From Acidobacteriota bacterium (lineage in GTDB: Bacteria; Acidobacteriota; Thermoanaerobaculia; Gp7-AA8): a stretch of 64,000 bases of DNA. How positions within the stretch are numbered: position 1 is the stretch's first letter; every line of letters starts with the position of its first letter. Both the position numbers and the translations under genes were made by a program. This document shows, piece by piece, positions 3,411 through 56,719 of this stretch. The stretch lies in assembly GCA_021781455.1 (NCBI GenBank), contig JAJXWV010000041.1:75484-139483 (forward strand), written 5' to 3'. A model generated the notes under the pieces. That model ran no database searches. It was not told the origin of the DNA and saw only the letters and a list, made by a program, of their open reading frames with translations.

Positions 3411-3818
3411 TTAGTGCTGAGTACTGAGTGCTGAGTACTGAGTGTGATTGCGCGGGCCTGCAATCGAGGCCCGTAAACCGCCGATGATCCGGCCAACTTC
3501 TTCAGCTCGTTCGAGGAGCACTTTCAGCGCCGGTTCGCTGATGTAGTCGACATCGAAGGCAATGTAGAGCTGTGTTCTCAGCTCGGCACAGGAGCCCTTC
3601 GCCACCGAAAGGAACTGGTGAAATTCCGAGCGGCGTGCGCGCTCGAATCCCTCCGCGATATTGGAAGGAATGGAGACGGCTGCTCGCCGAATCTGATCCT
3701 GCAAAGAACGGTCAGTCCAGAACGGCCTGCGGCGAGTGACGACGTAGACATCGCGCACGAGCGTTCGGGCCTTTTGCCATGCGATGAGATCCTCGAAGCG
3801 ATCAACTCGTTTTGCCAT
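3411..3818 (-). CDS. Four-helix-bundle protein (TIGR02436 / 23S rRNA intervening-sequence protein family)
   Basis: 135 aa. MAKRVDRFEDLIAWQKARTLVRDVYVVTRR...IPSNIAEGFERARRSEFHQFLSVAKGSCAELRTQLYIA matches the conserved core of the family (IPSNIAEG, GS..EL..QL). The gene sits between the macB ATPase and permease genes and is flanked on both sides by family A arrays. Confidence 0.8.
   Translation of the reverse strand: MAKRVDRFEDLIAWQKARTLVRDVYVVTRRRPFWTDRSLQDQIRRAAVSIPSNIAEGFERARRSEFHQFLSVAKGSCAELRTQLYIAFDVDYISEPALKVLLERAEEVGRIIGGLRASIAGPRNHTQYSALSTQH
3413..3445. repeat. Family A heptamer array, copy A2, CTGAGTA/CTGAGTG orientation. Left arm of the pair that brackets the four-helix-bundle gene.
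   Basis: gtgctgagtactgagtgctgagtactgagtg. It overlaps the 3' end of the four-helix-bundle CDS (encoding ...YSALSTQH). Confidence 0.8.
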
Positions 3819-3873
3819 GAGTTGATTGTCCCTCGGTCTACGAGAATCGGCGAAAACTCTACCCCGCGAAGAC

Positions 3874-3937
3874 TCACTCAGTACTCAGCACTCAGTACTC
3901 AGCACTCAGTACTCAGCACTCAGTACTCAGTACTCGG
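3874..3937. repeat. Family A heptamer array, copy A3, CTCAGTA/CTCAGCA orientation. Right arm of the pair around the four-helix-bundle gene.
   Basis: ctcagtactcagcactcagtactcagcactcagtactcagcactcagtactcagtactcgg, nine tandem heptamers that end at the macB ATPase stop codon. Confidence 0.85.
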
Positions 3938-4631: not shown

Positions 4632-5858
4632 GATTGGGTGGTTTCCTTCGTCGTGGTGTTTTCTTTCGTGATCTCGACGGCATCGCCGTCGTGCAGCTTC
4701 TTGAGCGTGCGGAACGGGCCGGTCACGATGGAATCGCCGCTCTTGATGCCGGAGGTGATGGCCACGTGCGTGGCATCGCTGATTCCGGTCTGCACCTCGA
4801 CCATACGAACTTTCCCGTCGTTCACCACAAATACGTACTTTTTCCGGGGAAGATTCTCGTCCGAGGAGTCTTCTTCACCTTTTTTTGCTCCCGGGACGCG
4901 CTCGACGACGCTTTGGATCGGCACCGACACCGTGTTCGGGGCCACGTTGGTCACGATCGAGACCTGGGAGCTCATACCCGGCCGGAGGCGGTCGTCGGGG
5001 TTGTCGATCAGCACCTTGACGGTGAAGTAGCGCACGCCGCTGCCGGCGCTCTGGCGGATGTTCGCGGAGCTGCCGATCTCGCTGACGTGTCCCGAGTATT
5101 CCTTGTCCGGCACGGCGTCCACGTGAATTCTGCCGGCCTGGCCGACGCGGATCCCGACGATGTCGGTCTCCCCCACCTCGGCGTTAACCAGGATCTGCGA
5201 GAGATCGGCGATGACGGCGATGACCGAGCCGGGATTGTTCATCGTGCCGGTGATCACCACTTCACCCTCGCGGGCGCTGAGCTGGACCACCTTGCCGTCG
5301 ATCGGCGAGCTGATGGTGGTGTGGGAAAGGTCGGTCTCGGCCTGCACGAGCGCGTCCCGGGCCTGACGTACCCCCTGCTCGGCCGAGCTGTATCCGGCGC
5401 GGGCATTGTCGTAGGCCAGTTTGGCCTGGTCGAACAGCTCCTGCGAGTTGATGCCCTGCTTCTGAAGGTTCACGGCGCGGTCATAGGCGAGTTTGGCGGT
5501 GGCGAGTGCCACGCGGCTGCGCTCCACTTCGATGCGACCGTTCTCGACCATCGATCGCATGCGGTCGCGCGCCGCGACGAACGAGGCGCGCTCGAGATCG
5601 ACGAGCTTCTGCCCCTTCTTCACGTAATCGCCTTCGTTGAAGTAGAGCTTCTCGATCTTGCCGATCACGTAGGCGCTGATGTTGACCTGCAGCTTCGGGT
5701 CGATCTCGCCGGGCGCGGTGACCACGGCCTCGATCTTCCGAGGCACGGCCTTCTCGGCGTAGACCTTTTCGGCGTTGCCGCCTCCGCTGCGGATGCTGAA
5801 ATAAACGATCGCGCCAATGAGGACGACGGCCGCCGCGATGATCAGCGGTCGCTTCACT
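4628..5858 (-). CDS. macA: Efflux periplasmic adaptor subunit (HlyD/MacA family)
   Basis: N-terminal TM anchor ([20 protein letters not shown]), coiled-coil region, beta-barrel and MP domains ([12 protein letters not shown]...[18 protein letters not shown]). Start is set at GTG 5858, overlapping the Yip1 stop by 4 nt. The ORF-track start at 6106 would overlap the Yip1 gene. Confidence 0.8.
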
Positions 5859-6615
5859 TCATCCTCGACGCCTGCAACACCGCGAAGGCCACCTTGACGG
5901 CTACCGCGAGCACCCACAGCGAGATCACGATCGTCGCCGACTTGCTCCTGGACAGCTTCGACATCGCCGCGTAGCCGATGATGAGCAGCACGAGGGCCCA
6001 GATCGTGAAGATGTCCAGTGAGCCGAGGAGCGCCGCCTGGACGGGCTGCAGCCTGTGATCGACGAGGAAGGAAAGGTTCGAGCGGACGGGATTGCTGAGA
6101 TCCCACGCCGTGAGGTCCCTCCGGTTCAGAAGAACGATTGTGGCCACGGCGGCGTGGAGCAGGAGCGGGTACCAGCCGTAAACCAGAATCGAGAAGGCCT
6201 GCTTGTAGTCGCCTTCTCCTCCAAAAAGCCGGAAGGCGATGAGGAAGATGCCCGCCACGATGGCCAGAACGATCAGCTGCAGAACGGGGGACGCGTACGT
6301 GGCGGCCTTGGCGACGGCCGCCCCGAAGCGGACGGCGCGTGCCATCTGGTCGGGCGTCATCTCCGACGCCCGTGGCGACTGTTGGATGCTGTCGCGCGTG
6401 ATGGATGCGAAATCGATGTGCCGGACAAGCAGCACGTTCGCCGTCAGCGAGATGGCGATCAGGATCAGCAGCGGGACGAGGATGTCGGGCCGGCGCGCGA
6501 TCGATTCGAGCGTCTCCACGGGCGAGAAGAACACGCCCATGATCCGCTGAAAAGAGTTGACCTTCGTCCCGGCCGCATTTGGCTGCGGGGCAACCGGCTC
6601 GACGTCTGCCGTCAT
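5854..6615 (-). CDS. Yip1-domain integral membrane protein
   Basis: 253 aa with five hydrophobic segments after an N-terminal soluble segment (FFSPVETLESIARRPDILVPLLILIAISL...), typical of the Yip1 family. It is translationally coupled to the upstream tolC and the downstream macA. Confidence 0.65.
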   Translation of the reverse strand: MTADVEPVAPQPNAAGTKVNSFQRIMGVFFSPVETLESIARRPDILVPLLILIAISLTANVLLVRHIDFASITRDSIQQSPRASEMTPDQMARAVRFGAAVAKAATYASPVLQLIVLAIVAGIFLIAFRLFGGEGDYKQAFSILVYGWYPLLLHAAVATIVLLNRRDLTAWDLSNPVRSNLSFLVDHRLQPVQAALLGSLDIFTIWALVLLIIGYAAMSKLSRSKSATIVISLWVLAVAVKVAFAVLQASRMK

Positions 6616-8326: not shown

Positions 8327-8543
8327 GTTGTAAGTCCTCCTAGACACGCCTCTTGTACGTAAGGCTCAGGGTGAGAGTTTCGAGAGTCGAAGGGGCGGCC
8401 GATTCGAGCGTGCATTGTACCGGCAGCATCCGATTTCAGTACGACACGGGATGGAAAACGTGGAACGGGCGTTCAACGCCGCCCAAAGTGATGACTTCCC
8501 GCCGCTTCCGCGGTTGCGCCGCGTAGGCCCAGGCGCTTCGCGC

Positions 8544-9725
8544 TCAGGCGGGCGCGGCAATCCCTTCTGGATCGACGGCCCGCGCGGTCTCCGGGATCGG
8601 ATCGCCGGCGAAGTGACATGCAGCGAACTGACCAGGGCCGTACCCGACCAGAGGCGGAACCTGGTCGTGGCAGATCGGGAACTGCGCGATCGGACAGCGG
8701 GTGTGGAAGACGCAGCCGCTGGGCGGATTGATCGGCGTCGGGATGTCGCCCTTGAGCAGGATCCGCTTCTTCTTCACGGTCGGATCGGGCACCGGCACAG
8801 CGGACAGCAGCGCCTTTGTGTACGGGTGCAGCGGATTCTCGTACAGGGCCTCGCGGCCGGCGATCTCCATGATCTTGCCGAGGTACATCACGGCCACGCG
8901 CGTGGAGATGTGCTCGACGACCGAGAGATCGTGGGCGATGAAGAGGTACGTCAGACCTAACTCCTCCTGCAGATCCTGGAGAAGGTTGACGACCTGCGCC
9001 TGCACTGAGACGTCGAGCGCGGAGACGGGCTCGTCGAGCACGAGAAACTTCGGATTGGTGGCCAGGGCCCGGGCCACGCCGACCCGTTGCCTCTGACCGC
9101 CTGAGAACTCGTGTGGATAGCGCCTGCGATATTCCGGCTGCAGCCCCACGCGCTCCAGCAGTTGCGCGACACGCTCGTCGCGCTGGGAGCCGTTCATCCC
9201 GCCGTGGATGATCAACGGCTCGGCGATGATCGTTCCCACGGTCATGCGCGGGTTCAGCGACGCGTACGGGTCCTGAAAGACGATCTGCATGTCGCGGCGC
9301 AGGCGGCGCATGCCGCCCGAGTCGAGCGCGATCACGTTCGTGCCCTCGAACTCGATCGTGCCGGACGTCGGCTCGATGAGCCGCAGGATGCAGCGGCCGA
9401 CGGTGGTCTTGCCCGATCCTGACTCGCCCACGAGGCCGAGAGTCTCGCCATGGCCGACTCCGAAGCTCACGCCGTCGACGGCCTTCACCTGTGCCACGGT
9501 CCGGGCAAGCACTCCCCGCTTCACCGGAAAGTATTTCGTCAGGTCACGGACGATCAGCAGCTGCTCGTGGTTTCCCGCCGGGAGGACCGGCGCGGTCTGA
9601 GACTGCGATCGCTCGCGTGGGTCATGCGGCTTTGGGCCGGCCGGCATGTCGCCTGCCGATCCCGCGCGCGCGGGCGCGGAGCCGTCGCCGAAGAAGGGAC
9701 GATCCTTCGCGTCAGGCACGGCCAC
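8544..9725 (-). CDS. Oligopeptide/dipeptide ABC transporter ATP-binding protein (OppF/DppF-like, with C-terminal oligopeptide TOBE domain)
   Basis: Walker [10 protein letters not shown], signature [15 protein letters not shown], Walker [12 protein letters not shown]-terminal [12 protein letters not shown]. The N-terminal ~60 codons are low complexity, so the true start may be internal (for example Met at about 9647). Confidence 0.8.
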
Positions 9726-9752
9726 CGCCCTCCCGAATGTTCAACATCTTTC

Positions 9753-10889
9753 TCATGAGCCCATGCGCTCCGGATCCGCCTCGTCCCCATGCAGATAGCA
9801 CCTCGCGATGTGCCCCTCCCCGACCGCCATCAGGGCCGGTTCATTTCCGAGGCAGATCTCCATCACGTCCGGACAGCGGGGGTTGAACTTGCAGCCGCGC
9901 GGGAGCGCGTCGATCGGAGGCACCATGCCCTTGATGGTCGGCAGCCTTCCCGACGGGGGGTTGTAGCTGGAATCGGCTTCGGCTGCGGTTCCGGACACCT
10001 CGCCCTTTGCCATGCTGGGCAGAGACCTCAGAAGTCCGCGCGTGTACGGGTGGGCCGGACTGGCGAATAGATCGCCGACGGTCGCTTCCTCGACGACGCG
10101 TCCCGTGTACATCACGATCACCCGGCTGCAGAACTCCGCCACCACGCCGAGGTCGTGCGTGATCAGCAGAATGGCCAGCCCGAGCCTGCGCTGAAGCCGC
10201 GCCAGCAGCTCCATGATCTGAGCCTGGATCGTGACGTCGAGCGCGGTGGTCGGCTCGTCCGCGATCAGCAGCTCCGGATCGCAGGAGAGTGCCATGGCGA
10301 TCATGACGCGCTGTCGCATGCCGCCGGAGAGCTGGTGCGGGTAGTCGTCGAGCCGCTTGATCGGGTCGGGAATCGAGACCAGATCGAGCATCTCCCCCGC
10401 CATCCGCCACGCTTCTTTCCTCGACACCTTCTTGTGGATGCGAATCGCCTCGGCCACCTGCGTGCCGATCTTGAACACCGGATTGAGCGACGTCATCGGC
10501 TCCTGGAAAACCATGGCGATGTCGTTGCCGCGCACTTTCCGCATGTCGCGCTCGGACAGCTCGGCGAGGTTGCGGCCGCGAAAGCGAACCTCGCCGCCGG
10601 TGATCTTCCCGGGAGAAGCGACGAGGCGCATGATCGACATCGCGGTGACGCTCTTGCCGCATCCCGACTCGCCGACCAGCGCCACGGCCTCACCCCGCCG
10701 CACGTGGAAGGAGACGCCGTCGACGGCGTGGACGCCGCCTCCGGAAGAGAGGAACGTCGTGCGCAGATTCCGGACATCGAGGAGCGCCTCGTCAGGAGTC
10801 GTATCGAGATCCGCAATTCGCGAACCCGGCATTCCGACGGGCTGACTCGATGTCGGTGGTGCGGCCGTCACGGTCGCGGATGGTAGCAA
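9753..10889 (-). CDS. Oligopeptide/dipeptide ABC transporter ATP-binding protein (OppD/DppD-like)
   Basis: Walker [11 protein letters not shown], signature [15 protein letters not shown], Walker [14 protein letters not shown]-terminal PPSG...RCP motif. The start may be the internal Met near 10832. Confidence 0.8.
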
Positions 10890-17876: not shown

Positions 17877-17965
17877 AATGGGACCGATGGGACCACTGGG
17901 ACCGATGGGACGCGTGGGACAGTCTCATAGGTCCCATTCGTCCCATCGGTCCCATTCGTCCCATT
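17877..17965. repeat. Family C inverted nonamer array (GATGGGACC units x5, spacer, GTCCCATYG units x4)
   Basis: atgggaccgatgggaccactgggaccgatgggacgcgtgggacag tctcatag gtcccattcgtcccatcggtcccattcgtcccatt. Confidence 0.85.
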
Positions 17966-20417: not shown

Positions 20418-20443
20418 GACCCGCTCAGGGCTTGGTTCCGCGG

Positions 20444-20511
20444 TTCCGCGGTTCCGCGGTTGCGCAGTGGACGTCGACCGCGGAACCGCGCAACCGCGCA
20501 ACCGCGCAACC
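20444..20511. repeat. Family B inverted octamer array (GGTTSCGC x4, spacer, GCGSAACC x4), copy B1
   Basis: ggttccgcggttccgcggttccgcggttgcgc agtggacgtcgacc gcggaaccgcgcaaccgcgcaaccgcgcaacc. It lies immediately 5' of the dnaG start. The ORF-track N-terminal extension RNRATAQPRNHA is this repeat translated. Confidence 0.85.
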
Positions 20512-33551: not shown

Positions 33552-33650
33552 AGCGGGAAGCGGGCAGCGGGTAGGACGACGGTGCTCGCCACCATCCGCG
33601 CCTCCTACCCGCTACTCGCTACCCGCTACCCGCTACCCGCTTCGTTATCA
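33552..33650. repeat. Family G inverted heptamer array (GCGGGWA x3, spacer, CGCTACC x5)
   Basis: gcgggaagcgggcagcgggtagga cgacggtgctcgccaccatccgcgcc tcctacccgctactcgctacccgctacccgctacccgc. It directly follows the tRNA-Leu 3' end. A half-copy occurs at 42906-42930. Confidence 0.8.
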
Positions 33651-40764: not shown

Positions 40765-40867
40765 GAGTGCTGAGTACTGAGTGCTGAGTACTGAGTGGTG
40801 GAACCGGAAGCAGGCCTTTGTTGTGCTCGTGACACTCAGTACTCAGCACTCAGTACTCAGCACTCAG
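40765..40867. repeat. Family A inverted heptamer array, copy A4
   Basis: gagtgctgagtactgagtgctgagtactgagtg + 37-nt spacer + ctcagtactcagcactcagtactcagcactcag. It starts 4 nt after the kinase stop. Confidence 0.85.
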
Positions 40868-45813: not shown

Positions 45814-45937
45814 AGTGCTGATTCCTGAGTGCTGAGTACCGAGTTCCGCCGTGCGATCGAGCGCCTCGTTCCGCGTCTCGTACCTGTCGCCCCAATCGCC
45901 GACTCAGTACTCAGCACTCAGTACTCAGTACTAAGAT
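45814..45937. repeat. Family A inverted heptamer array, copy A5 (57-nt spacer)
   Basis: agtgctgattcctgagtgctgagtaccgag ... ctcagtactcagcactcagtactcagtact. Confidence 0.8.
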
Positions 45938-47440: not shown

Positions 47441-48106
47441 TCACCAGCTGATCGTCCACTCGCATTCCGGGGCGTGCTCGGCCATACACCGGGTGTGGAT
47501 GACCGTCGGCGATACCCCCGTCATTTCGGCGATCTGCTCGATCCAGCCGGTCACTCGTGCGCACATGACCGGCTGCGGCGAGGGAAAGTCCGTCAGCCGG
47601 ATCACGGCGGACGTCGGCGTCTTCTGGTCGGCCGACATCCGCCCGGCGCTGTTCATCGTCGACCACATGGCGGTCGCCTTTCCGAGGACCACGTTCGTGC
47701 TGAGGACGCGGACGAAGACCCGGTACACGCCCTCCACGCCAGCCTTCGCCGAGAAGCGTCCTGCCCGTCGCGCGAACTGCGGCACCGGTTCACCGGCGGC
47801 ACTTGCAGCCTGGATAGTCAACGCGTTGAGCAGCGACATGGGATAGGTATTGGTGGCGAGGATCAGGCGCTTCGAGAGATCGTTGCGGTACGGCTGCGGC
47901 GCAGCCTGCAGAAGAGCCATGACTTTCTCGGGAGGCAGTGCCTGATCGAGAAACTTGAGGAAGCTGATGACTGTCTGCCCCTTCACGGACACTTCATCCG
48001 GCATGCGAGGCCTCTCGATCAAACCGTGAGTATGTTGGACCAGCTGCGATTTTACTCGCGCTGGAGCGCCGAATGTGGAGCGATAAGGATGATGGATGAA
48101 GCTCAT
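47441..48106 (-). CDS. Hypothetical protein
   Basis: 221-aa ORF convergent with the preceding gene. No motif recognised with confidence. C-terminal Cys/His cluster HTRCMAEHAPECEW. Confidence 0.4.
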   Translation of the reverse strand: MSFIHHPYRSTFGAPARVKSQLVQHTHGLIERPRMPDEVSVKGQTVISFLKFLDQALPPEKVMALLQAAPQPYRNDLSKRLILATNTYPMSLLNALTIQAASAAGEPVPQFARRAGRFSAKAGVEGVYRVFVRVLSTNVVLGKATAMWSTMNSAGRMSADQKTPTSAVIRLTDFPSPQPVMCARVTGWIEQIAEMTGVSPTVIHTRCMAEHAPECEWTISW

Positions 48107-48245
48107 CGCAGCGCGACTGGGCAGCCCTCATCCCTCAGACCTCATCCCTCGACATGGTCACTTATAATGCCGCCCGCACGAACCGGGGGGCGCGTGCTTC
48201 CTGCCTGTCACCTCGGCTCGCCGTCTCTGAACGCGGAGGTATTCC

Positions 48246-49646
48246 TTGGCAGACCAGCAATTCGATGTCGTCATCATCGGCAGCGGGCCCGGCGGATACG
48301 TCGGCGCCATCCGCGCCGGGCAGCTCGGCCTCAAAGTGGCCGTCGTCGAGAAGGATCCGTTCGTCGGCGGAACGTGCACCCACCGCGGCTGCATCCCCAC
48401 GAAAGCGCTCCTCGAGAACGCGGACATCTGGTCGAAGATCCAGAAGTCGAAGGAGTTCGGCATCACCGTCGGCGACGCCCATCTCGACTTCGCGGCAGGC
48501 CAGGAGCGCAAGCAGAGCGTCGTCGACAAGAGCGCGAAGGGAATCGAGTTCCTGTTCAAGAAGAACAAGGTCGAGCGCCTGACCGGGTTCGGCCGCGTGG
48601 TCTCACCGGGCATCGTCGAGGTCAAGGGCGCCGACGGAGCGGTGCAGCGCCTGCAGACGAAGGACATCATCCTGGCGATGGGCTCGACTCCCCGCGATCT
48701 TCCCCACATCAAGGCCGACGGAAAGCGCATCCTCAATTCCGATCACATCCTCAAGATCGGCGACGTTCCGAAGTCGATGCTGGTCATCGGCGCCGGAGCC
48801 GTGGGATGCGAGTTCGCCTCGATCTTCGCGCGCTTCGGGACGAAGGTCACCATCGTCGAAGTCCTGCCGCAGCTGCTCCCCATCGAAGACGAGGAGATTT
48901 CGAAGGAGTTCACGCGGCTGTTCAAGAAGAAAGGCATCGACGTCTACACAGACGCGAAAGTCGAGTCTGCAGAAGTGCACGACAACGGGGTTCGTTGTGT
49001 GGTCTCCGCCAAAGGCAAGCAGCTGACGTTCGACGTCGAAGTCGTCCTTTCCGCGACCGGACGCCGCGCCGTCACGGAGAATTGCGGCCTTGAAGCCGCC
49101 GGCGTGAAGGTCGAGCGCGGATTCGTGCAGGTCGACGAGCTCATGCGCACCGGCGTGGCCGGCATCTACGCCATCGGCGACATCGTCCCCACTCCGGCCC
49201 TCGCCCACTGCGCCTCGGCCGAAGGGATTCTCGTCGTCGAGCACATCAAGGGCCTCGAGGTCCGGCCGCTCAACTACGACCACATTCCGAATTGCACCTA
49301 CACGGACCCGGAAGTCGCTTCGGTCGGCCTCACTGAGAAGAAGGCCCGCGAGCGCGGGTACGACGTGAAAATCGGCAAGTTCCCCTTCACCGCCAGCTCG
49401 AAGGCCCGCATTCTCGGCGACGCGAACGGCCTGGTGAAGTACGTCTGCGACGCCAAATACGACGAAATCCTCGGCGTCCACATCGTCGGCCCGCATGCCA
49501 CCGAGCTCATCGCTGAGGCGTGTGTCGCGCTCGAGCTGGAAGCGACGAGTGAATCGATCGCCCGGACCGTCCATGCTCATCCGACACTCTCCGAGGCCAT
49601 GATGGAAGCGGCCGAAGATGTGCAGGGACACGCTATTCACATCTAA
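48246..49646 (+). CDS. lpdA: Dihydrolipoyl dehydrogenase
   Basis: FDVVIIGSGPGGYVGAIRAGQLG, redox-active disulfide GGTCTHRGCIPTKAL, NAD-binding VIGAGAVGCEFA, C-terminal HAHPTLSEA. Confidence 0.95.
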   Translation: MADQQFDVVIIGSGPGGYVGAIRAGQLGLKVAVVEKDPFVGGTCTHRGCIPTKALLENADIWSKIQKSKEFGITVGDAHLDFAAGQERKQSVVDKSAKGIEFLFKKNKVERLTGFGRVVSPGIVEVKGADGAVQRLQTKDIILAMGSTPRDLPHIKADGKRILNSDHILKIGDVPKSMLVIGAGAVGCEFASIFARFGTKVTIVEVLPQLLPIEDEEISKEFTRLFKKKGIDVYTDAKVESAEVHDNGVRCVVSAKGKQLTFDVEVVLSATGRRAVTENCGLEAAGVKVERGFVQVDELMRTGVAGIYAIGDIVPTPALAHCASAEGILVVEHIKGLEVRPLNYDHIPNCTYTDPEVASVGLTEKKARERGYDVKIGKFPFTASSKARILGDANGLVKYVCDAKYDEILGVHIVGPHATELIAEACVALELEATSESIARTVHAHPTLSEAMMEAAEDVQGHAIHI

Positions 49647-49767
49647 GAGTGCTGAGTACTGAGTGCTGAGTACTGAGTGGCGAGTACTGAGTGGCGAGTA
49701 CTGAGTGCTGAGTGGCGACGCCGCCGCTCGGCATTGACTCAGTACTCAGCACTCAGTACTCAGCACT
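49647..49767. repeat. Family A inverted heptamer array, copy A6 (long left arm with GAGTGGC variants)
   Basis: gagtgctgagtactgagtgctgagtactgagtggcgagtactgagtggcgagtactgagtgctgagtggc gacgccgccgctcggcattga ctcagtactcagcactcagtactcagcact. Confidence 0.85.
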
Positions 49768-49772
49768 TCGCG

Positions 49773-50186
49773 ATGACAGAACAGACGACGAGCCCACACG
49801 TCGACACACGGGGCCTGACGCGCGATCAGCTTCTGCAGATCGAGTACTACCTCCGTCTGACGCGTGCGCTGGAGGAGCGGCTGGTGGCGCTGTTCCGGCA
49901 GTCGAAGGTGATCGGAGGCCTCTATCGCTCCCTCGGGCAGGAGGGCGAGTCCGTGGCCGCCGCCTATGCGCTCGATTACAAGCAGGGCGACGTCGTGCAG
50001 CCGCTGATCCGCAACATGGGCGCGATCCTCGTGGCGGGTGCAAGACCTCTGGACATCGTGCGGCAGTACATGGCCAAGGGCGACTCGCCGACTCGCGGGC
50101 GCGAGCTGAACATCCATTTCGGACATCCGGCGCGGGACGGATTCATCGGCCAGATCTCGATGCTCTTGATCAGTGCCGATCACTGA
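49773..50186 (+). pseudogene. Truncated 2-oxoacid dehydrogenase E1 component alpha subunit. Only the N-terminal ~137 codons remain. The 3' part and the E1 beta gene are absent.
   Basis: LTRDQLLQIEYYLRLTRALEERLVALFRQSKVIGGLYRSLGQEGESVAAAYAL...GDSPTRGRELNIHFG is collinear with the first third of PdhA/BkdA1. The frame stops at 50186, where family A copy A7 begins. The E2 gene follows 100 bp later. Confidence 0.7.
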
Positions 50187-50250
50187 GAGCTGAGCACGCG
50201 TCGAATGACTCGGTAACGACACTCAGTACTCAGCACTCAGCACTCAGCAC
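50184..50250. repeat. Family A heptamer array, copy A7 (weak left arm, right arm ctcagtactcagcactcagcactcagcact)
   Basis: ctgagagctgagcac gcgtcgaatgactcggtaacgaca ctcagtactcagcactcagcactcagcact. Confidence 0.75.
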
Positions 50251-50289
50251 TTCGATTGCATATGCTTCTTGTCCTGCAGGAGTGAGCAA

Positions 50290-51723
50290 ATGGCCATAGA
50301 TGTCGTAATGCCCCAGATGGGCGAATCGATCGCCGAAGGAACCGTCTCGCGCTGGCTGAAGAAGCCGGGAGACAAAGTCGATCGCGACGAGCCGCTGCTC
50401 GAGATCTCGACCGACAAGGTCGACACCGAGATCCCCTCGCCCGCCGCCGGGACGCTGGCCGAGGTGCTGGTGCAGGAAGGGCAGACGGTGCCGGTGAACT
50501 CGGTCGTGGCGCGGATCGCCGCGGAAGGCGAGGCGACGGCCCCGGCGCCGAAGCCCGCCTCCGCCCCCCAACCCGCCCCACCCGCCCCCGCCGCCGCTCC
50601 GCCCCGCCCGCAACCAGCGCCGCCGCAGCCCAGCCAGGCGATCCGACAGGAAGTGCGTCAGGAGGCGTTCGCGGCCGCGGCGACTCCGAAGCCCGAGATG
50701 CGCACGCCGCCGCCTCCCACGCCGGCGATTGCGGCGACCGAACCCGGCGAAGACGAGAACGTCACCTCACTCGACGAGCGGCGGAGGACCAGGTCGTCGC
50801 CGCTGGTGCGCAAGATTGCCCAGGAGAACAACGTCGACGTCTCCCAGCTGCATGGCACCGGCGTCTCGGGCCGCGTCACGAAGAACGACATCCTCGACTT
50901 CCTGCAGCAGCCGCGTTCCGCCCAACCAGCCGCCGCAGCTCAGCAGTTGGCGCCGCAGCCTCAGCCGATCGCGCCGGCGCAGCGCGTGCCCGAGCGCGTT
51001 CCCGCGCCGCAGTTCGCCCCCGGGGAAAGCGTTCGCATCGAGCCGCTCTCGGTGATGCGCAAGAAGATCGCCCAGCACATGACGCTTTCGAAGCAGACCT
51101 CGGCGCACGTCACCACGGTGTTCGAATACGACTTCACCGCCATCGAGAAGCTCCGCCGGCAGCACAAGCAGAGCTACGCCGAGCGAGGCGTGAAGCTGAC
51201 CTACCTGCCGTTCATCGTCGACGCCGTGATCGCCGGTCTGCGCCAGTTCCCGATCATCAACGCTTCGATGGACGAGAACAGCATCATCTACCACCGCGAG
51301 CTGAACATCGGGATCGCCGTGGCGCTCGACTGGGGACTCATCGTCCCGGTCGTGAAGCACGCCGACGAGAAGAACATCCTCGGCCTGGCCCGCGCTATCA
51401 GCGATCTCGGTGAGCGGGCGCGCACCAAGAAGCTTTCGCCCGATGAGGTGCAGGGCGGCACGTTCACCATCACGAATCCTGGCATTTTCGGCGGGCTGTT
51501 CGGAACTCCGATCATCAATCAGCCGCAGGTGGCCATCCTCGGCGTCGGTGGCGTGAAGAAGCGGCCGGTGGTCGTGGAGACCGACGACGGTGATTCCATC
51601 GCCATCCATTCGATGTGCATCATGTCCCTGACTTTCGACCATCGCCTGATCGACGGCGCCGTGGCTGACCAGTTCATGGCCTACCTCCGCGACATCCTCG
51701 AAGGCGGCCAGTTCTCGATGTGA
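50290..51723 (+). CDS. Dihydrolipoamide acyltransferase (E2) of a 2-oxoacid dehydrogenase complex
   Basis: Lipoyl domain EISTDKVDTEIPSP (lipoyl-Lys), a Pro/Ala linker, a peripheral subunit-binding domain (SPLVRKIAQENNVDVSQLHGTGVSGRVTKNDI), and the catalytic domain with DHRLIDGA. Confidence 0.95.
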   Translation: MAIDVVMPQMGESIAEGTVSRWLKKPGDKVDRDEPLLEISTDKVDTEIPSPAAGTLAEVLVQEGQTVPVNSVVARIAAEGEATAPAPKPASAPQPAPPAPAAAPPRPQPAPPQPSQAIRQEVRQEAFAAAATPKPEMRTPPPPTPAIAATEPGEDENVTSLDERRRTRSSPLVRKIAQENNVDVSQLHGTGVSGRVTKNDILDFLQQPRSAQPAAAAQQLAPQPQPIAPAQRVPERVPAPQFAPGESVRIEPLSVMRKKIAQHMTLSKQTSAHVTTVFEYDFTAIEKLRRQHKQSYAERGVKLTYLPFIVDAVIAGLRQFPIINASMDENSIIYHRELNIGIAVALDWGLIVPVVKHADEKNILGLARAISDLGERARTKKLSPDEVQGGTFTITNPGIFGGLFGTPIINQPQVAILGVGGVKKRPVVVETDDGDSIAIHSMCIMSLTFDHRLIDGAVADQFMAYLRDILEGGQFSM

Positions 51724-51786
51724 CCAAGTGTCATTCTGACTTCTGACGGGAATGCTCGCCTCTCCTCTCTCCTTAACCCCTTTGCC

Positions 51787-52944
51787 ATGCGCGTTTGCGA
51801 GCTCCACAAGCTTCACCTCGTCACTTACGAGAATGGGATGAAGCTGCAGCAGAAGCTCGTCGAGCTGCGTCAGACCGAGCAGATCCCCGATCAGCTGCTG
51901 CTCCTCGAGCATCCGCCGGTGATCACGCTCGGCCGTGGCGGCAACGCTGCGAACCTGCTCGCGAGCGGCGAGCGGCTGCGAGCCGAACGCGTCCGCTTTT
52001 TCGAGACCACGCGCGGTGGCGACATCACCTACCACGGCCCCGGCCAGGTCGTCGGATATCCGATCATCCACCTCGGCGAAGGCAATCGCGACGTTCGCAA
52101 GTACGTCACCAAGCTCGAGGAAGTGCTGATCCGAACCGTGGCGCACTACGGCATCACCGCCGCACGCGTGGAGGGGAAGCGCGGCATCTGGGTCGGCAAC
52201 GACAAGATCGCCGCGATCGGCGTGCGCATCGCACGATGGGTGACCTCGCACGGTTTCGCCCTCAACGTCGGCACCAATCTCGATCACTTCCGTCTGATCA
52301 CGCCGTGCGGCCTGCACGGCACCGGCGTCACTTCGATCGAGCGCGAGATCGGACGGACCATTCCAATCGAGGAAGTCCGGGATCTCCTGGCTGCAAAGTT
52401 CGCCGAGGTCTTCGAGCGGGAGATGGTCCCGCGGCCGGAGAACATCCGGCTGATCAAGATCGTGCTGCACGACGCCGGCAATCGCGTGCTGCTACTGCAT
52501 CGCAAGCCGGAACGGGGCAATTTCTGGCAACCCATCACCGGGGCAATCGAGAAGGATGAGGCGCCGCTCGAGGCCGCCCGCCGCGAGCTTCTCGAAGAGA
52601 CGGGCACGGCCGGCGAGCCGCGGCCGATGGGCATCACCCAGTCGTTTCTGATCGAGTCGACGTTCCTCTCCTCGCGGCTCGGTGCTCTCGTCATCGCCAG
52701 CGAGGTCGGCTTCGAGATGCCCGTCGACTCTTCGATTCCGATCCGCATCGATCCCGAGGAGCATGACGGCCACGGCTGGTTCACCTTCGGCGAGGCCTAC
52801 GAGAAGATCCGCTGGACCGACGACCGTGAAGCGCTCGAGGAGCTGGAAACGCGGTTGTGCGGCCCCGCGATGGCACAGTTCCGCGATGACGACGAAGAAG
52901 AAACCGCGCAACCGCGGAGCCGCGGAACCGCGCAACCAGTATGA
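51787..52944 (+). CDS. lipB: Octanoyltransferase LipB fused to a C-terminal Nudix hydrolase domain
   Basis: LipB part: HPPVITLGRGG, TTRGGDITYHGPGQVVGYPII, KIAAIGVRIARWVTSHGFALNV (with the catalytic Cys in PCGLHG). Nudix box: GAIEKDEAPLEAARRELLEETG (Gx5Ex7REUxEExGU) at residues about 250-272. The C-terminal tail ETAQPRSRGTAQPV is a family B octamer array translated. Confidence 0.8.
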   Translation: MRVCELHKLHLVTYENGMKLQQKLVELRQTEQIPDQLLLLEHPPVITLGRGGNAANLLASGERLRAERVRFFETTRGGDITYHGPGQVVGYPIIHLGEGNRDVRKYVTKLEEVLIRTVAHYGITAARVEGKRGIWVGNDKIAAIGVRIARWVTSHGFALNVGTNLDHFRLITPCGLHGTGVTSIEREIGRTIPIEEVRDLLAAKFAEVFEREMVPRPENIRLIKIVLHDAGNRVLLLHRKPERGNFWQPITGAIEKDEAPLEAARRELLEETGTAGEPRPMGITQSFLIESTFLSSRLGALVIASEVGFEMPVDSSIPIRIDPEEHDGHGWFTFGEAYEKIRWTDDREALEELETRLCGPAMAQFRDDDEEETAQPRSRGTAQPV

Positions 52945-53819
52945 GCACCGATCCCAAACCACTGAACCGCCGCGCCGGCATCCGCCCGGAGTGGCTGAAG
53001 ATCCGCGTTCCCGGCGATCTCGATCAGCTTCCGGTGTCGAAGCTGATGAGCGACCTGGCCCTCAACACCGTCTGCCAGGAAGCGCGTTGCCCTAACATCT
53101 TCGACTGCTGGAATGCCGGCACCGCCACCTTCATGGTCCTCGGCGAGATCTGCACGCGGCGCTGCACCTTCTGCGCGGTCGGCAAGGGCAAGCCGCTGAG
53201 GTCGGACCAGGATGAGCCGCGGCGGGTGGCCGAGGCCGTCGGCCGGATGGGAATCCGGCACGCGGTCATCACGATGGTCAATCGCGACGACATGCCGGAT
53301 GGCGGCGCCGGGCACGTCGCCAGAACGGTCCTGGCCGTCCGCGACGGCAGCGGTGCGACCGTCGAAGTTCTCGTTTCCGACCTGGAAGGCAATCGCGACG
53401 CCTTACGCGTCGTGCTCGCCTCCCGCCCGGAAGTGTTCGCGCACAACATCGAAACGGTTCCCCGGCTCTATCCCGCCGTAAGGCCGGTCGCGAAGTACGA
53501 GCGCTCGCTCGAAGTCCTGCGCTGGGCAGGCCAGGAACGCTATGAAGGCATGCTCACGAAGTCGAGCCTGATGCTCGGCCTCGGCGAAACCGAGCAGGAG
53601 ATCCTCGCCGTTGCCGCCGACCTGCGCAGCGCCGGCGTCGACGTCTTCACCATGGGCCAGTACCTCGCGCCCACCGGCAACCACCATCCGGTGCGCCGCT
53701 ACTGGTCCCCCCATGAGTTTGCCGAGCTGGGCAGGCGCGCACGCGAGCTCGGCTTCCATCACGTCGAATCCGCTCCGCTGGTGCGCAGTTCCTATATGGC
53801 GCACCGTGCGCTCGCTTGA
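52941..53819 (+). CDS. lipA: Lipoyl synthase
   Basis: Auxiliary cluster CQEARCPNIFDC, radical-SAM cluster CTRRCTFCAV. The ATG overlaps the lipB stop. Confidence 0.95.
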   Translation: MSTDPKPLNRRAGIRPEWLKIRVPGDLDQLPVSKLMSDLALNTVCQEARCPNIFDCWNAGTATFMVLGEICTRRCTFCAVGKGKPLRSDQDEPRRVAEAVGRMGIRHAVITMVNRDDMPDGGAGHVARTVLAVRDGSGATVEVLVSDLEGNRDALRVVLASRPEVFAHNIETVPRLYPAVRPVAKYERSLEVLRWAGQERYEGMLTKSSLMLGLGETEQEILAVAADLRSAGVDVFTMGQYLAPTGNHHPVRRYWSPHEFAELGRRARELGFHHVESAPLVRSSYMAHRALA

Positions 53820-56625: not shown

Positions 56626-56705
56626 GGTTGCGCGGTTGCGCGGTGGACGGCGACGATCGTCGGGTCTGACACCGCGCAACCCCGCAACCGCGGAACCGCG
56701 CAACC
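56626..56705. repeat. Family B inverted octamer array, copy B3
   Basis: ggttgcgcggttgcgcggtgg acggcgacgatcgtcgggtctgacac cgcgcaaccccgcaaccgcggaaccgcgcaacc, directly downstream of the tRNA-Met. Confidence 0.85.
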
Positions 56706-56719
56706 GGTTGGGCGGGCGG

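What the first reader, a model, noticed from the sequence alone, without database searches (positions are those of the whole stretch)
49647..50290. 2-oxoacid dehydrogenase operon with E1-alpha truncated exactly at a family A repeat; E1-beta missing
lpd and E2 are intact. Between them only the first ~137 codons of an E1 alpha subunit remain (good collinearity with PdhA/BkdA N-terminus up to ...RGRELNIHFG). The frame terminates at the first unit of array A7, and array A6 sits on the other side.

The remaining ~200 codons of E1-alpha and all of E1-beta are absent. The E2 gene follows 100 bp later with its own RBS. This looks like a repeat-mediated deletion. The complex would be non-functional unless E1 is supplied in trans.

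The gene order lpd-E1-E2 is also unusual; lpd is normally last.
Basis: partly seen in the sequence, partly recalled or inferred. Interest (0 to 1): 0.6.

Follow-up and report, generated by a model that had tools for sequence, protein, structure and literature searches.

The report
Deleted E1 genes in dehydrogenase operon
A soil bacterium of the class Thermoanaerobaculia has lost about 1.7 kb from a conserved 2-oxoacid dehydrogenase operon, leaving a dead 137-codon stub of the first enzyme (E1), and one related lineage lost the same genes independently; this is ordinary gene decay, not a new system.

Summary
Between an intact lpd (48246-49646) and an intact E2 (50290-51723) lies a 137-codon ORF (49773-50186). 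Its first 131 residues are 84-90% identical to the N-terminus of E1-alpha in related Thermoanaerobaculia. The thiamine diphosphate (TPP) motif, the rest of E1-alpha and all of E1-beta are missing.

Of 98 related loci, 90 of the 91 long enough to judge carry full E1-alpha, and 65 of 66 carry E1-beta. The window therefore has a derived deletion of about 1.6-1.9 kb.

It is not a misassembly. The same junction lies in unique sequence and recurs in five further contigs from five other assemblies.

One relative (L007) has an independent, exactly mapped 1,723-bp in-frame deletion, and its nearest relatives are intact.

The lpd-first order is the norm in this clade. The heptamer hairpin after lpd is an ancestral feature of these intergenic regions. 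The right breakpoint does sit 5 nt before a degenerate hairpin arm, but repeat mediation is unproven, and L007's junction has no repeat.

The stub shows no decay, which fits a recent deletion. Whether E2/E3 work with an E1 encoded elsewhere could not be tested. Interest is low to moderate.

The parts
48246..49646 (+). lpd (E3, dihydrolipoyl dehydrogenase), intact, 466 aa
   Evidence: Pfam Pyr_redox_2 and Pyr_redox_dim. NCBIfam TIGR01350 scores 569.5 bits against a cutoff of 408.8.
49647..49714 (+). Hairpin A6, + arm: about 9.7 heptamer units of GAGTRCT, starting directly after the lpd stop codon
   Evidence: Tandem repeat call. Pairs with 49737-49767, 31 nt at 100% complementarity. The fold has MFE -95.9 kcal/mol, z -11.8. 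Comparable hairpins sit in the lpd-E1alpha intergenic region of intact relatives.
49737..49767 (+). Hairpin A6, - arm (AGYACTC units), ending 5 nt before the stub's ATG
49773..50165 (+). E1-alpha remnant, codons 1-131, homologous to the N-terminus of full-length E1-alpha (327-367 aa in relatives)
   Evidence: 84-90% aa identity to orthologues, with every match ending at residue 131. Pfam E1_dh scores 19.9 bits, below the cutoff of 22, covering profile positions 4-91 of 300. TIGR03181 scores 38.8 against a cutoff of 411.
50166..50186 (+). Non-homologous tail (LISADH) and TGA stop. The deletion junction lies at 50165/50166.
   Evidence: Codon-level comparison with L089. blastx finds no E1-alpha C-terminal or E1-beta remnant.
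50171..50196 (+). Degenerate + arm of hairpin A7 (AGTGCCGATCACTGAGAGCTGAGCAC), 21 of 26 bases matching the canonical heptamer sequence
   Evidence: An overlapping stretch, 50171-50205, is listed as a 63% copy. The 21/26 match is my own count on the sequence. The local fold is weak, -36 kcal/mol, z -1.35.
50217..50251 (+). Hairpin A7, - arm (4.6 units of CACTCAG). It is also 94% complementary to the A6 + arm 534 nt upstream.
   Evidence: inverted repeat I1.
50290..51723 (+). E2 (dihydrolipoyl acyltransferase), intact, 477 aa from the ATG, with GGAG 8 nt upstream
   Evidence: Pfam Biotin_lipoyl, E3_binding and 2-oxoacid_dh, the last at 277 bits. The gene call in identical contigs is 477 aa. The window carries a private A46T variant at 50425.
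51787..52944 (+). LipB octanoyltransferase fused to a NUDIX domain, 385 aa
   Evidence: The arrangement is syntenic in relatives.
52941..53819 (+). LipA lipoyl synthase, 292 aa

Best explanation
The region is the scar of a genuine genomic deletion of about 1.6-1.9 kb in a Thermoanaerobaculia chromosome.

The ancestral operon was lpd - [hairpin] - E1alpha - E1beta - E2, with LipB-NUDIX and LipA downstream. The deletion removed E1-alpha from codon 132 onward and all of E1-beta. It joined codon 131 to a point 5 nt upstream of an intergenic heptamer hairpin.

The remaining 137-codon ORF lacks the GDG...NN thiamine diphosphate (TPP) motif and the beta subunit. It is therefore a non-catalytic remnant, a young pseudogene. 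lpd, E2, LipB and LipA stay intact.

**Shown:**
- the deletion itself;
- its derived status;
- its presence in every sampled contig of this population;
- an independent parallel deletion in another lineage.

**Inferred:**
- the event was a single illegitimate-recombination or slippage event;
- it is evolutionarily recent;
- the stub has no function;
- E2/E3 persist either because an E1 is encoded elsewhere or because E3 is needed by other lipoyl systems.
For: - **Ancestral state.** Of 98 related loci, 90 of the 91 that could be judged carry the E1-alpha C-terminal part, and 65 of 66 carry E1-beta. The distance from codon 131 to the E1-beta stop is 1590-1873 nt, median 1627.
- **Breakpoint.** Every match to the stub ends at residue 131. 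In L089 the next codons are GGC GAC ATG... (GDMIPVM), whereas the window reads TTG ATC AGT....
- **Loss of function.** The intact orthologue has the TPP motif FIGDGASSTG...ENNGYA downstream of the breakpoint.
- **Assembly.** Five further contigs from five other assemblies (four ENA samples and NCBI MAG GCA_027388875.1) are identical across the junction, differing at most at one position, 50425. No intact allele closer than 90% identity appears among the listed hits of the search of 5.8 billion proteins.
- **Parallel loss.** L007 has a 1,723-bp in-frame deletion joining E1-alpha ...HFGH to E1-beta YLDAPIK.... L007 nests within a clade of intact genomes whose lpd is 92-93% identical.
- **No decay.** The stub has 0 private changes at 70 otherwise invariant sites. 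Its pairwise dN/dS of 0.06-0.11 equals that of intact orthologues, which fits a recent event.
Against: - The complete absence of decay in the stub fits purifying selection on a functional peptide as well as it fits recency. With dS of about 0.6-1.0 to the nearest relatives, the test has little power.
- No intact relative closer than 90% aa identity is available. The ancestral right-hand junction therefore cannot be reconstructed, and a one-step deletion cannot be told from a multi-step one.
- Only 64 kb of the genome was visible. Relocation of the missing E1 parts elsewhere cannot be excluded.
Confidence: 0.85

Rival explanations
1. Hairpin- or repeat-mediated deletion. The heptamer arrays caused the deletion, either by palindrome-stimulated replication slippage or by recombination between same-orientation arrays that flanked E1-beta. 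This concerns mechanism only and is compatible with the best explanation.
For: - E1-alpha homology ends 5 nt before a degenerate + arm (50171-50196), which is followed by a perfect - arm.
- The intact relatives L117, L126 and L024 have same-family hairpins in both the lpd-E1alpha and the E1alpha-E1beta intergenic regions. L126 has another hairpin after E1-beta. Direct copies that could recombine therefore plausibly existed.
- The + arm of A7 is unusually degenerate, whereas the other hairpins of the window are near perfect.
Against: - The left breakpoint lies in unique coding sequence with no heptamer unit.
- No direct repeat spans the junction.
- Hairpins begin 0-5 nt after stop codons at several gene ends here (lpd in the window; lpd or E1-alpha in L117 and L126). 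Any deletion that spares E2 would therefore end close to one.
- The independent deletion in L007 has no repeat and at most 1 nt of microhomology.
Confidence: 0.3
2. Assembly artefact. The real genome has full E1-alpha and E1-beta, and the assembler collapsed the region at the A6/A7 repeats.
For: - All contigs are short-read k141-type assemblies.
- Two short contigs (L004, L005) end near the arrays, which shows that the assembly graph is tangled there.
Against: - A collapse needs a shared repeat on both sides, but the left junction is in unique E1-alpha coding sequence.
- The arrays are at most 68 nt long, shorter than k=141.
- The junction is identical in five further contigs from five other assemblies.
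- No protein more than 90% identical to the stub that extends past residue 131 appears among the listed hits from public data.
- A second lineage, from a different study, has a similar deletion.
Confidence: 0.02
3. Rearrangement, not loss. The 3' part of E1-alpha and E1-beta were moved elsewhere in the genome by inversion or translocation at a hairpin. The genome would then still carry E1-beta, and possibly a split E1-alpha.
For: Inverted arrays of the same family are scattered through the genome and could support inversions. Only 64 kb of the genome could be inspected.
Against: - There is no E1 remnant anywhere in the 64 kb at E<=1.
- The L007 event is a simple, clean deletion.
- A split within the TPP-binding fold would be unlikely to give an active enzyme. 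This last point is inference.
Confidence: 0.05
4. Functional stub. The N-terminal E1-alpha peptide (at least 113 residues) is kept by selection as a small protein with a new role, for example a regulatory or scaffold role with E2/E3.
For: - Two independent deletions both keep the start codon and the first 113-131 codons in an open frame.
- The window stub has 0 private changes at 70 invariant sites, and its dN/dS is 0.06-0.11.
Against: - Only 2 of about 100 lineages carry a stub.
- The two C-termini differ (LISADH versus 43 residues of the E1-beta tail).
- Pairwise dN/dS is dominated by evolution before the deletion.
- I see no Shine-Dalgarno sequence in front of the stub's ATG, which sits 5 nt after a -96 kcal/mol hairpin.
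- The fragment is an incomplete piece of the TPP-binding fold, not a self-contained domain. This is inferred from the alignment to PDB entry 1UM9.
Confidence: 0.05

Closest known systems
Heterotetrameric (alpha2beta2) E1 of pyruvate/branched-chain 2-oxoacid dehydrogenase complexes (Pfam PF00676 E1_dh; nearest solved structure Thermus thermophilus 2-oxo acid dehydrogenase alpha subunit, PDB 1UM9)
   Same: Residues 1-131 of the stub are collinear with the N-terminus of this family. The intact orthologue from L089 matches 1UM9 at E 2.7e-48 over residues 23-329.
   Different: The stub stops before the GDG...NN thiamine diphosphate motif, lacks about 200 residues, and has no adjacent beta subunit. 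It scores below both the Pfam and the NCBIfam cutoffs. It is a remnant, not a member able to act as an enzyme.
Bacterial pseudogenes formed by deletion (ordinary gene decay)
   Same: A conserved gene pair is truncated by a single internal deletion, and the neighbouring genes are untouched. A parallel independent deletion exists in a related lineage.
   Different: The remnant is still an intact ORF with no further decay. The partner genes (E2, E3 and the lipoylation genes) are retained in both lineages.
Mycobacterium tuberculosis DlaT (E2) and Lpd (E3), which serve more than one E1 and also support AhpD/AhpC peroxidase activity through direct NADH-dependent reduction by E3 (PMC12995895, which cites Bryk et al. 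2002)
   Same: This is a precedent for two things: an E2/E3 pair can be useful with an E1 encoded elsewhere, and it can work without any E1 step.
   Different: No AhpC or AhpD gene, and no other E1, was seen among the ORFs of the 64-kb window that I scanned. Nothing here tests such a role, so this is an analogy only.
REP/BIME-type extragenic palindromes and heptanucleotide short tandem repeats (cyanobacterial STRR, from my own knowledge; TAACTGA repeats of Beggiatoaceae, PMC4679880)
   Same: These are short units of period 7, intergenic, present in many copies per genome, and placed at gene ends.
   Different: Here the units form paired inverted arrays that fold into long perfect hairpins of up to -96 kcal/mol. 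The unit sequence differs from genome to genome while the position in the operon is kept.

Membership tests
E1-alpha subunit of 2-oxoacid dehydrogenases (PF00676 / TIGR03181) | Full-length match above the curated family score | tested here: not met
   Pfam E1_dh scores 19.9 bits against a cutoff of 22, covering profile positions 4-91 of 300. TIGR03181 scores 38.8 against a cutoff of 411.35.
E1-alpha subunit of 2-oxoacid dehydrogenases (PF00676 / TIGR03181) | Thiamine diphosphate binding motif GDG-X(~25-30)-NN | tested here: not met
   The motif in the intact orthologue L089 (FIGDGASSTG...ENNGYA) lies downstream of residue 131. The stub ends at ...GQISML plus LISADH.
E1-alpha subunit of 2-oxoacid dehydrogenases (PF00676 / TIGR03181) | Orthology of the retained part to bona fide E1-alpha genes at the same locus | tested here: met
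   84-90% aa identity over residues 1-131 to E1-alpha genes that lie between lpd and E1-beta in about 90 related loci.
E1-alpha subunit of 2-oxoacid dehydrogenases (PF00676 / TIGR03181) | Partner E1-beta subunit (Transket_pyr and Transketolase_C domains) encoded alongside | tested here: not met
   No E1-beta homologue in the 64-kb window at tblastn E<=1. It is present in 65 of 66 relatives that could be judged.
Complete 2-oxoacid dehydrogenase complex operon (E1 + E2 + E3) | E2 with a lipoyl domain (lipoyl-lysine), a subunit-binding domain and a catalytic domain with the DHRxxDG motif | tested here: met
   Pfam Biotin_lipoyl, E3_binding and 2-oxoacid_dh. The translation shows TDK and FDHRLIDG.
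Complete 2-oxoacid dehydrogenase complex operon (E1 + E2 + E3) | E3 dihydrolipoyl dehydrogenase | tested here: met
   TIGR01350 scores 569.5 bits against a cutoff of 408.8.
Complete 2-oxoacid dehydrogenase complex operon (E1 + E2 + E3) | A catalytically competent E1 encoded in the locus | tested here: not met
   Only the 131-residue remnant is present.
Complete 2-oxoacid dehydrogenase complex operon (E1 + E2 + E3) | An E1 encoded elsewhere in the same genome that could dock on this E2 | not testable with these tools
Repeat-mediated (homologous or slippage) deletion | Direct repeats or microhomology at both ancestral breakpoints | tested here: inconclusive
   The left breakpoint is unique coding sequence. 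The right one is 5 nt from a degenerate array arm. The ancestral sequence is unknown because the closest intact relative is only 90% identical at the protein level.

The most novel reading that the evidence does not exclude
Loss of this operon's own E1 is recurrent and tolerated, or even favoured, in soil Thermoanaerobaculia. The reason would be that the retained E2-E3-LipB-LipA module works without it, either by docking an E1 encoded elsewhere or by an E1-independent lipoamide redox role like Lpd/DlaT-AhpD in Mycobacterium tuberculosis. The N-terminal E1-alpha stub might be kept as a translated peptide.
Probability: 0.12. Interest if true: 0.5.

Novelty: new member of a known kind. Interest (0 to 1): 0.25.

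Why it matters
For annotation, this MAG's 'dehydrogenase complex' should not be counted as a working pyruvate or branched-chain 2-oxoacid dehydrogenase in metabolic reconstructions. The 137-aa ORF should be flagged as a remnant.

Biologically, two independent E1 deletions, each retaining E2, E3 and the lipoylation genes, hint that this E1 is dispensable in some soil Thermoanaerobaculia. That would be worth following up only if whole genomes show no replacement E1.

The by-product is probably the more interesting lead. Intergenic hairpins built from inverted heptamer arrays keep their position across genomes while their unit sequence differs from genome to genome.

Tried and rejected
- **Remnants.** I searched for residual E1-alpha C-terminal or E1-beta coding sequence in 49640-50300 (blastx, all frames, E<=100) and in the whole window (tblastn, E<=1). 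Only the known N-terminal match appeared.
- **Closer intact relative.** I scanned both genome contigs and metagenome contigs to reconstruct the ancestral junction. Nothing was closer than 90% aa identity.
- **Tests for decay.** I used dN/dS and counts of private substitutions to separate a pseudogene from a functional stub. Both showed no decay, but power is low because dS to the nearest relatives is 0.6-1.0 and the population contigs are nearly identical.
- **Other deletion variants.** I looked up the contigs of two further apparent E1-alpha deletion variants (P0013, P0004). Neither is on record, so they remain unverified.
- **Known RNAs.** Rfam at gathering thresholds found only two tRNAs in the window and nothing at the hairpins.
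- **Promoters and terminators.** The consensus scan of 48000-52000 found nothing above the shuffle expectation.
- **Script flags.** L124 turned out to be intact. L093 has a frame break in E1-alpha rather than a large deletion.
- **Single shared deletion.** I rejected the idea that the window and L007 share one ancestral deletion. Their endpoints are incompatible: the window keeps E1-alpha codons 114-131, while L007 keeps 43 codons of the E1-beta tail. L007's closest relatives are also intact.
Full report
**What is in the sequence**

The stretch 48.2-53.8 kb encodes five genes on the + strand:
- lpd (48246-49646, 466 aa);
- a 137-codon ORF (ATG 49773 to TGA 50186);
- E2 (ATG 50290-51723);
- a LipB-NUDIX fusion (51787-52944);
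- LipA (52941-53819).

lpd passes the curated dihydrolipoyl dehydrogenase model, at 569.5 bits against a cutoff of 408.8. E2 has the lipoyl, E3-binding and catalytic domains, plus the TDK lipoyl-lysine site and the DHRLIDG catalytic motif.

The small ORF gives only a sub-threshold E1_dh match (19.9 bits, cutoff 22), covering profile positions 4-91 of 300. E2's ATG lies 103 nt after the stub's stop codon and has a GGAG 8 nt upstream.

**The ORF is an E1-alpha remnant and the state is derived**

The stub was used as the query in scans of species-representative genomes and of JGI metagenomes. These returned 98 loci of Thermoanaerobaculia type with 77-90% aa identity.

Every match stops at residue 131 (...HPARDGFIGQISML). 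The last six codons (LISADH) match nothing.

Mapping lpd, the E1-alpha N- and C-terminal parts, E1-beta, E2, LipB and LipA on all loci gave these counts:
- 90 of 91 loci that could be judged continue into a full E1-alpha of 327-367 aa;
- 65 of 66 have E1-beta;
- lpd lies within 450 nt upstream in 49 of 64.

The ancestral operon is thus lpd-E1alpha-E1beta-E2, and the lpd-first order is the norm in this clade, not an oddity. From codon 131 to the E1-beta stop, relatives have 1590-1873 nt (median 1627). That range is the size of the missing piece.

In the closest intact orthologue (L089, 90% identity) the codons after ...ATG CTC are GGC GAC ATG ATC (GDMIPVM). Its thiamine diphosphate motif FIGDGASSTG...ENNGYA lies further downstream. 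The window instead reads TTG ATC AGT GCC GAT CAC TGA.

No trace of the E1-alpha C-terminal part or of E1-beta exists in any frame of 49640-50300, nor anywhere in the 64 kb. The intact orthologue belongs to the alpha2beta2 E1 type. Its best solved relative is the Thermus thermophilus 2-oxo acid dehydrogenase alpha subunit, PDB 1UM9, at E 2.7e-48. Substrate specificity is not resolved. E1-alpha scores below both PDH equivalog cutoffs, and E2 sits at the cutoff of an actinobacterial SucB model.

**It is not an assembly artefact**

The exact 137-aa protein is on record on eight contigs. Five of them were fetched. They come from four ENA assemblies and from NCBI MAG GCA_027388875.1. Over up to 12.4 kb, four of them differ from the window only at position 50425, and the fifth, which does not reach that position, is identical. 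All five span the junction.

The left junction lies in unique coding sequence, and the arrays are at most 68 nt long. A repeat collapse cannot produce such a join. That last step is inference from how de Bruijn assemblers work.

Among the listed hits of the search of 5.8 billion proteins, the next best after the exact match is only 86-90% identical. No intact allele of this population was found.

**A second, independent deletion**

A relative from a different study (L007) also has lpd, a short ORF and then E2. Its 156-aa ORF is E1-alpha up to ...NIHFGH, fused in frame to the last 43 residues of E1-beta (YLDAPIKREAALDVPTPYSPPLE...ELLRY). The identity of that tail was confirmed against 40 E1-beta C-termini.

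Against L010 the event maps exactly as a deletion of 1,723 bp (8346-10068), with at most 1 nt of microhomology and no repeat at the junction.

In a neighbour-joining tree of lpd plus the E2 catalytic domain, L007 sits inside a clade of intact genomes (L010, L046, L047, L083; lpd 92-93% identical). The window lies on a separate long branch.

The endpoints are also mutually incompatible. The window keeps E1-alpha codons 114-131, and L007 keeps the E1-beta tail. These are therefore two separate losses. One further locus (L093) has a frame break near E1-alpha residue 280, which may be a sequencing error.

**The role of the repeats**

The heptamer family GAGTRCT is real: 33 matches against 0.04 expected. 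It occurs as inverted array pairs that fold into long hairpins:
- A6, after lpd: -95.9 kcal/mol, z -11.8;
- 40765-40867: -70.5 kcal/mol;
- 45827-45933: -48.7 kcal/mol.

Intact relatives carry hairpins of the same or sister units (GAGTGCT, GAGTCCT, GAGTGCC, GGGTGCT, each with a matching opposite arm). These lie in the lpd-E1alpha intergenic region, and in L117, L126 and L024 also between E1-alpha and E1-beta. Where the flanking stop codon can be read (window, L117, L126), they begin 0-5 nt after it. Of 41 foldable lpd-E1alpha intergenic regions, 35 fold at -25 kcal/mol or stronger, many with period-7 units that differ between genomes.

A6 is therefore an ancestral feature of that position, not part of the deletion event.

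Downstream of the stub, a perfect - arm (50217-50251) is preceded by a degenerate + arm (50171-50196, 21 of 26 bases). That arm starts 5 nt after the end of E1-alpha homology, and the local fold is weak (z -1.35).

This does not show causation, for three reasons:
- the left breakpoint has no repeat;
- a deletion that spares E2 would end close to a gene-end hairpin in any case;
- the L007 deletion involved no repeat.

I rate repeat or hairpin stimulation as possible (about 0.3) but unproven.

**Age and function of the stub**

The stub has no private substitution at 70 sites that are invariant or differ in a single sequence among 44 sequences. L007 has one. Pairwise dN/dS is 0.06-0.11 for both stubs, the same as between intact orthologues at 0.05-0.15.

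Because dS to the nearest relatives is 0.6-1.0, these values mostly reflect evolution before the deletion. They fit a recent deletion and cannot exclude selection on the peptide.

Four observations argue against a function:
- only two of about 100 lineages have a stub;
- the two C-termini are unrelated;
- the ATG sits 5 nt after a very stable hairpin, and I see no Shine-Dalgarno sequence in front of it;
- the fragment is an incomplete part of the TPP-binding fold.

E2, lpd and LipB show no excess of private changes; LipA has six, against at most three in any other genome. The only SNP in this population is nevertheless a non-synonymous E2 change, A46T, three residues after the lipoyl-lysine. 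Ala is invariant at that site in 17 relatives. This is a single hint of relaxed constraint and no more.

**Consequences**

The locus cannot make its own E1. Among the ORFs of the 64 kb that I scanned I found housekeeping genes (dnaG, rpoD, mutS2, murJ, ftsH, tilS, nadA, hemB) but no other E1, no 2-oxoacid:ferredoxin oxidoreductase and no AhpC/AhpD.

Whether an E1 elsewhere serves this E2 could not be tested. In Mycobacterium tuberculosis one E2 (DlaT) serves two E1s, and E3 can reduce its lipoate directly to drive AhpD/AhpC (PMC12995895). Both supply in trans and an E1-independent role therefore have precedent, but nothing here demonstrates either.

**Verdict**

This is a real, probably recent deletion pseudogene in a conserved operon, with a parallel loss in a related lineage. 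It is a new instance of an ordinary process. The repeat-mediated mechanism, the 'unusual gene order' and the misassembly worry are, respectively, unproven, wrong for this clade, and excluded.

Noticed in passing
window 49647-49767, 40765-40867, 45827-45933, 3412-3935; loci L117, L126, L012, L112, L027, L024, L021, L037, L031: Intergenic hairpins built from inverted arrays of a period-7 unit are widespread in Thermoanaerobaculia. They often occupy the same operon position (the lpd-E1alpha and E1alpha-E1beta intergenic regions, starting 0-5 nt after the stop codon where that can be read). The unit sequence differs between genomes (GAGTGCT, GAGTCCT, GAGTGCC, GAGTGAT, GATCGGC, TTTTGCA and others), and both arms change together. 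35 of 41 foldable lpd-E1alpha intergenic regions fold at -25 kcal/mol or stronger. No Rfam match.
   Followed up: partly
window 3411-3818 (- strand), flanked by 3412-3444 and 3875-3935: A 135-aa four-helix-bundle protein gene (TIGR02436, 112 bits; the family of 23S rRNA intervening-sequence proteins) sits exactly between a + arm and a - arm of the same heptamer family. It is as if the gene lay in the loop of a hairpin element.
   Followed up: partly
window 50425: This is the only difference between the window and four other contigs of the same population. The change is A (window) versus G, giving E2 A46T, three residues after the lipoyl-lysine. Ala is invariant at this site in 17 relatives. 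It also explains why the window's exact E2 protein is not on record.
   Followed up: yes
L007 8001-8471: A relative carries an independent 1,723-bp in-frame deletion that fuses E1-alpha residues 1 to about 113 to the last 43 residues of E1-beta. Its closest relatives (lpd 92-93% identical) are intact.
   Followed up: yes
L093 about 5800-5980; proteins P0013 and P0004: L093's E1-alpha loses its reading frame near residue 280, through either a real frameshift or a sequencing error. Two short-contig proteins look like in-frame internal deletions of the E1-alpha TPP region, but their contigs are not on record.
   Followed up: partly
window 51787-52944: LipB octanoyltransferase is fused to a C-terminal NUDIX hydrolase domain (385 aa). 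The fusion is conserved across the related loci.
   Followed up: no
window 17878-17965, 20434-20511, 33605-33641, 52902-52937, 56671-56706: Further short tandem arrays with other units are present (ATGGGACCG with GTCCCAT, GGTTCCGC with ACCGCGCA, CTACCCG). Some are in inverted pairs, so this genome carries several families of array hairpins.
   Followed up: no
L016, L018, L022, L023, L036, L044, L092, L099, L101, L105, L128: In several intact relatives, 0.6-3 kb of extra sequence lies between lpd and E1-alpha, or between E1-beta and E2. The intergenic regions of this operon are therefore frequent sites of insertion.
   Followed up: no
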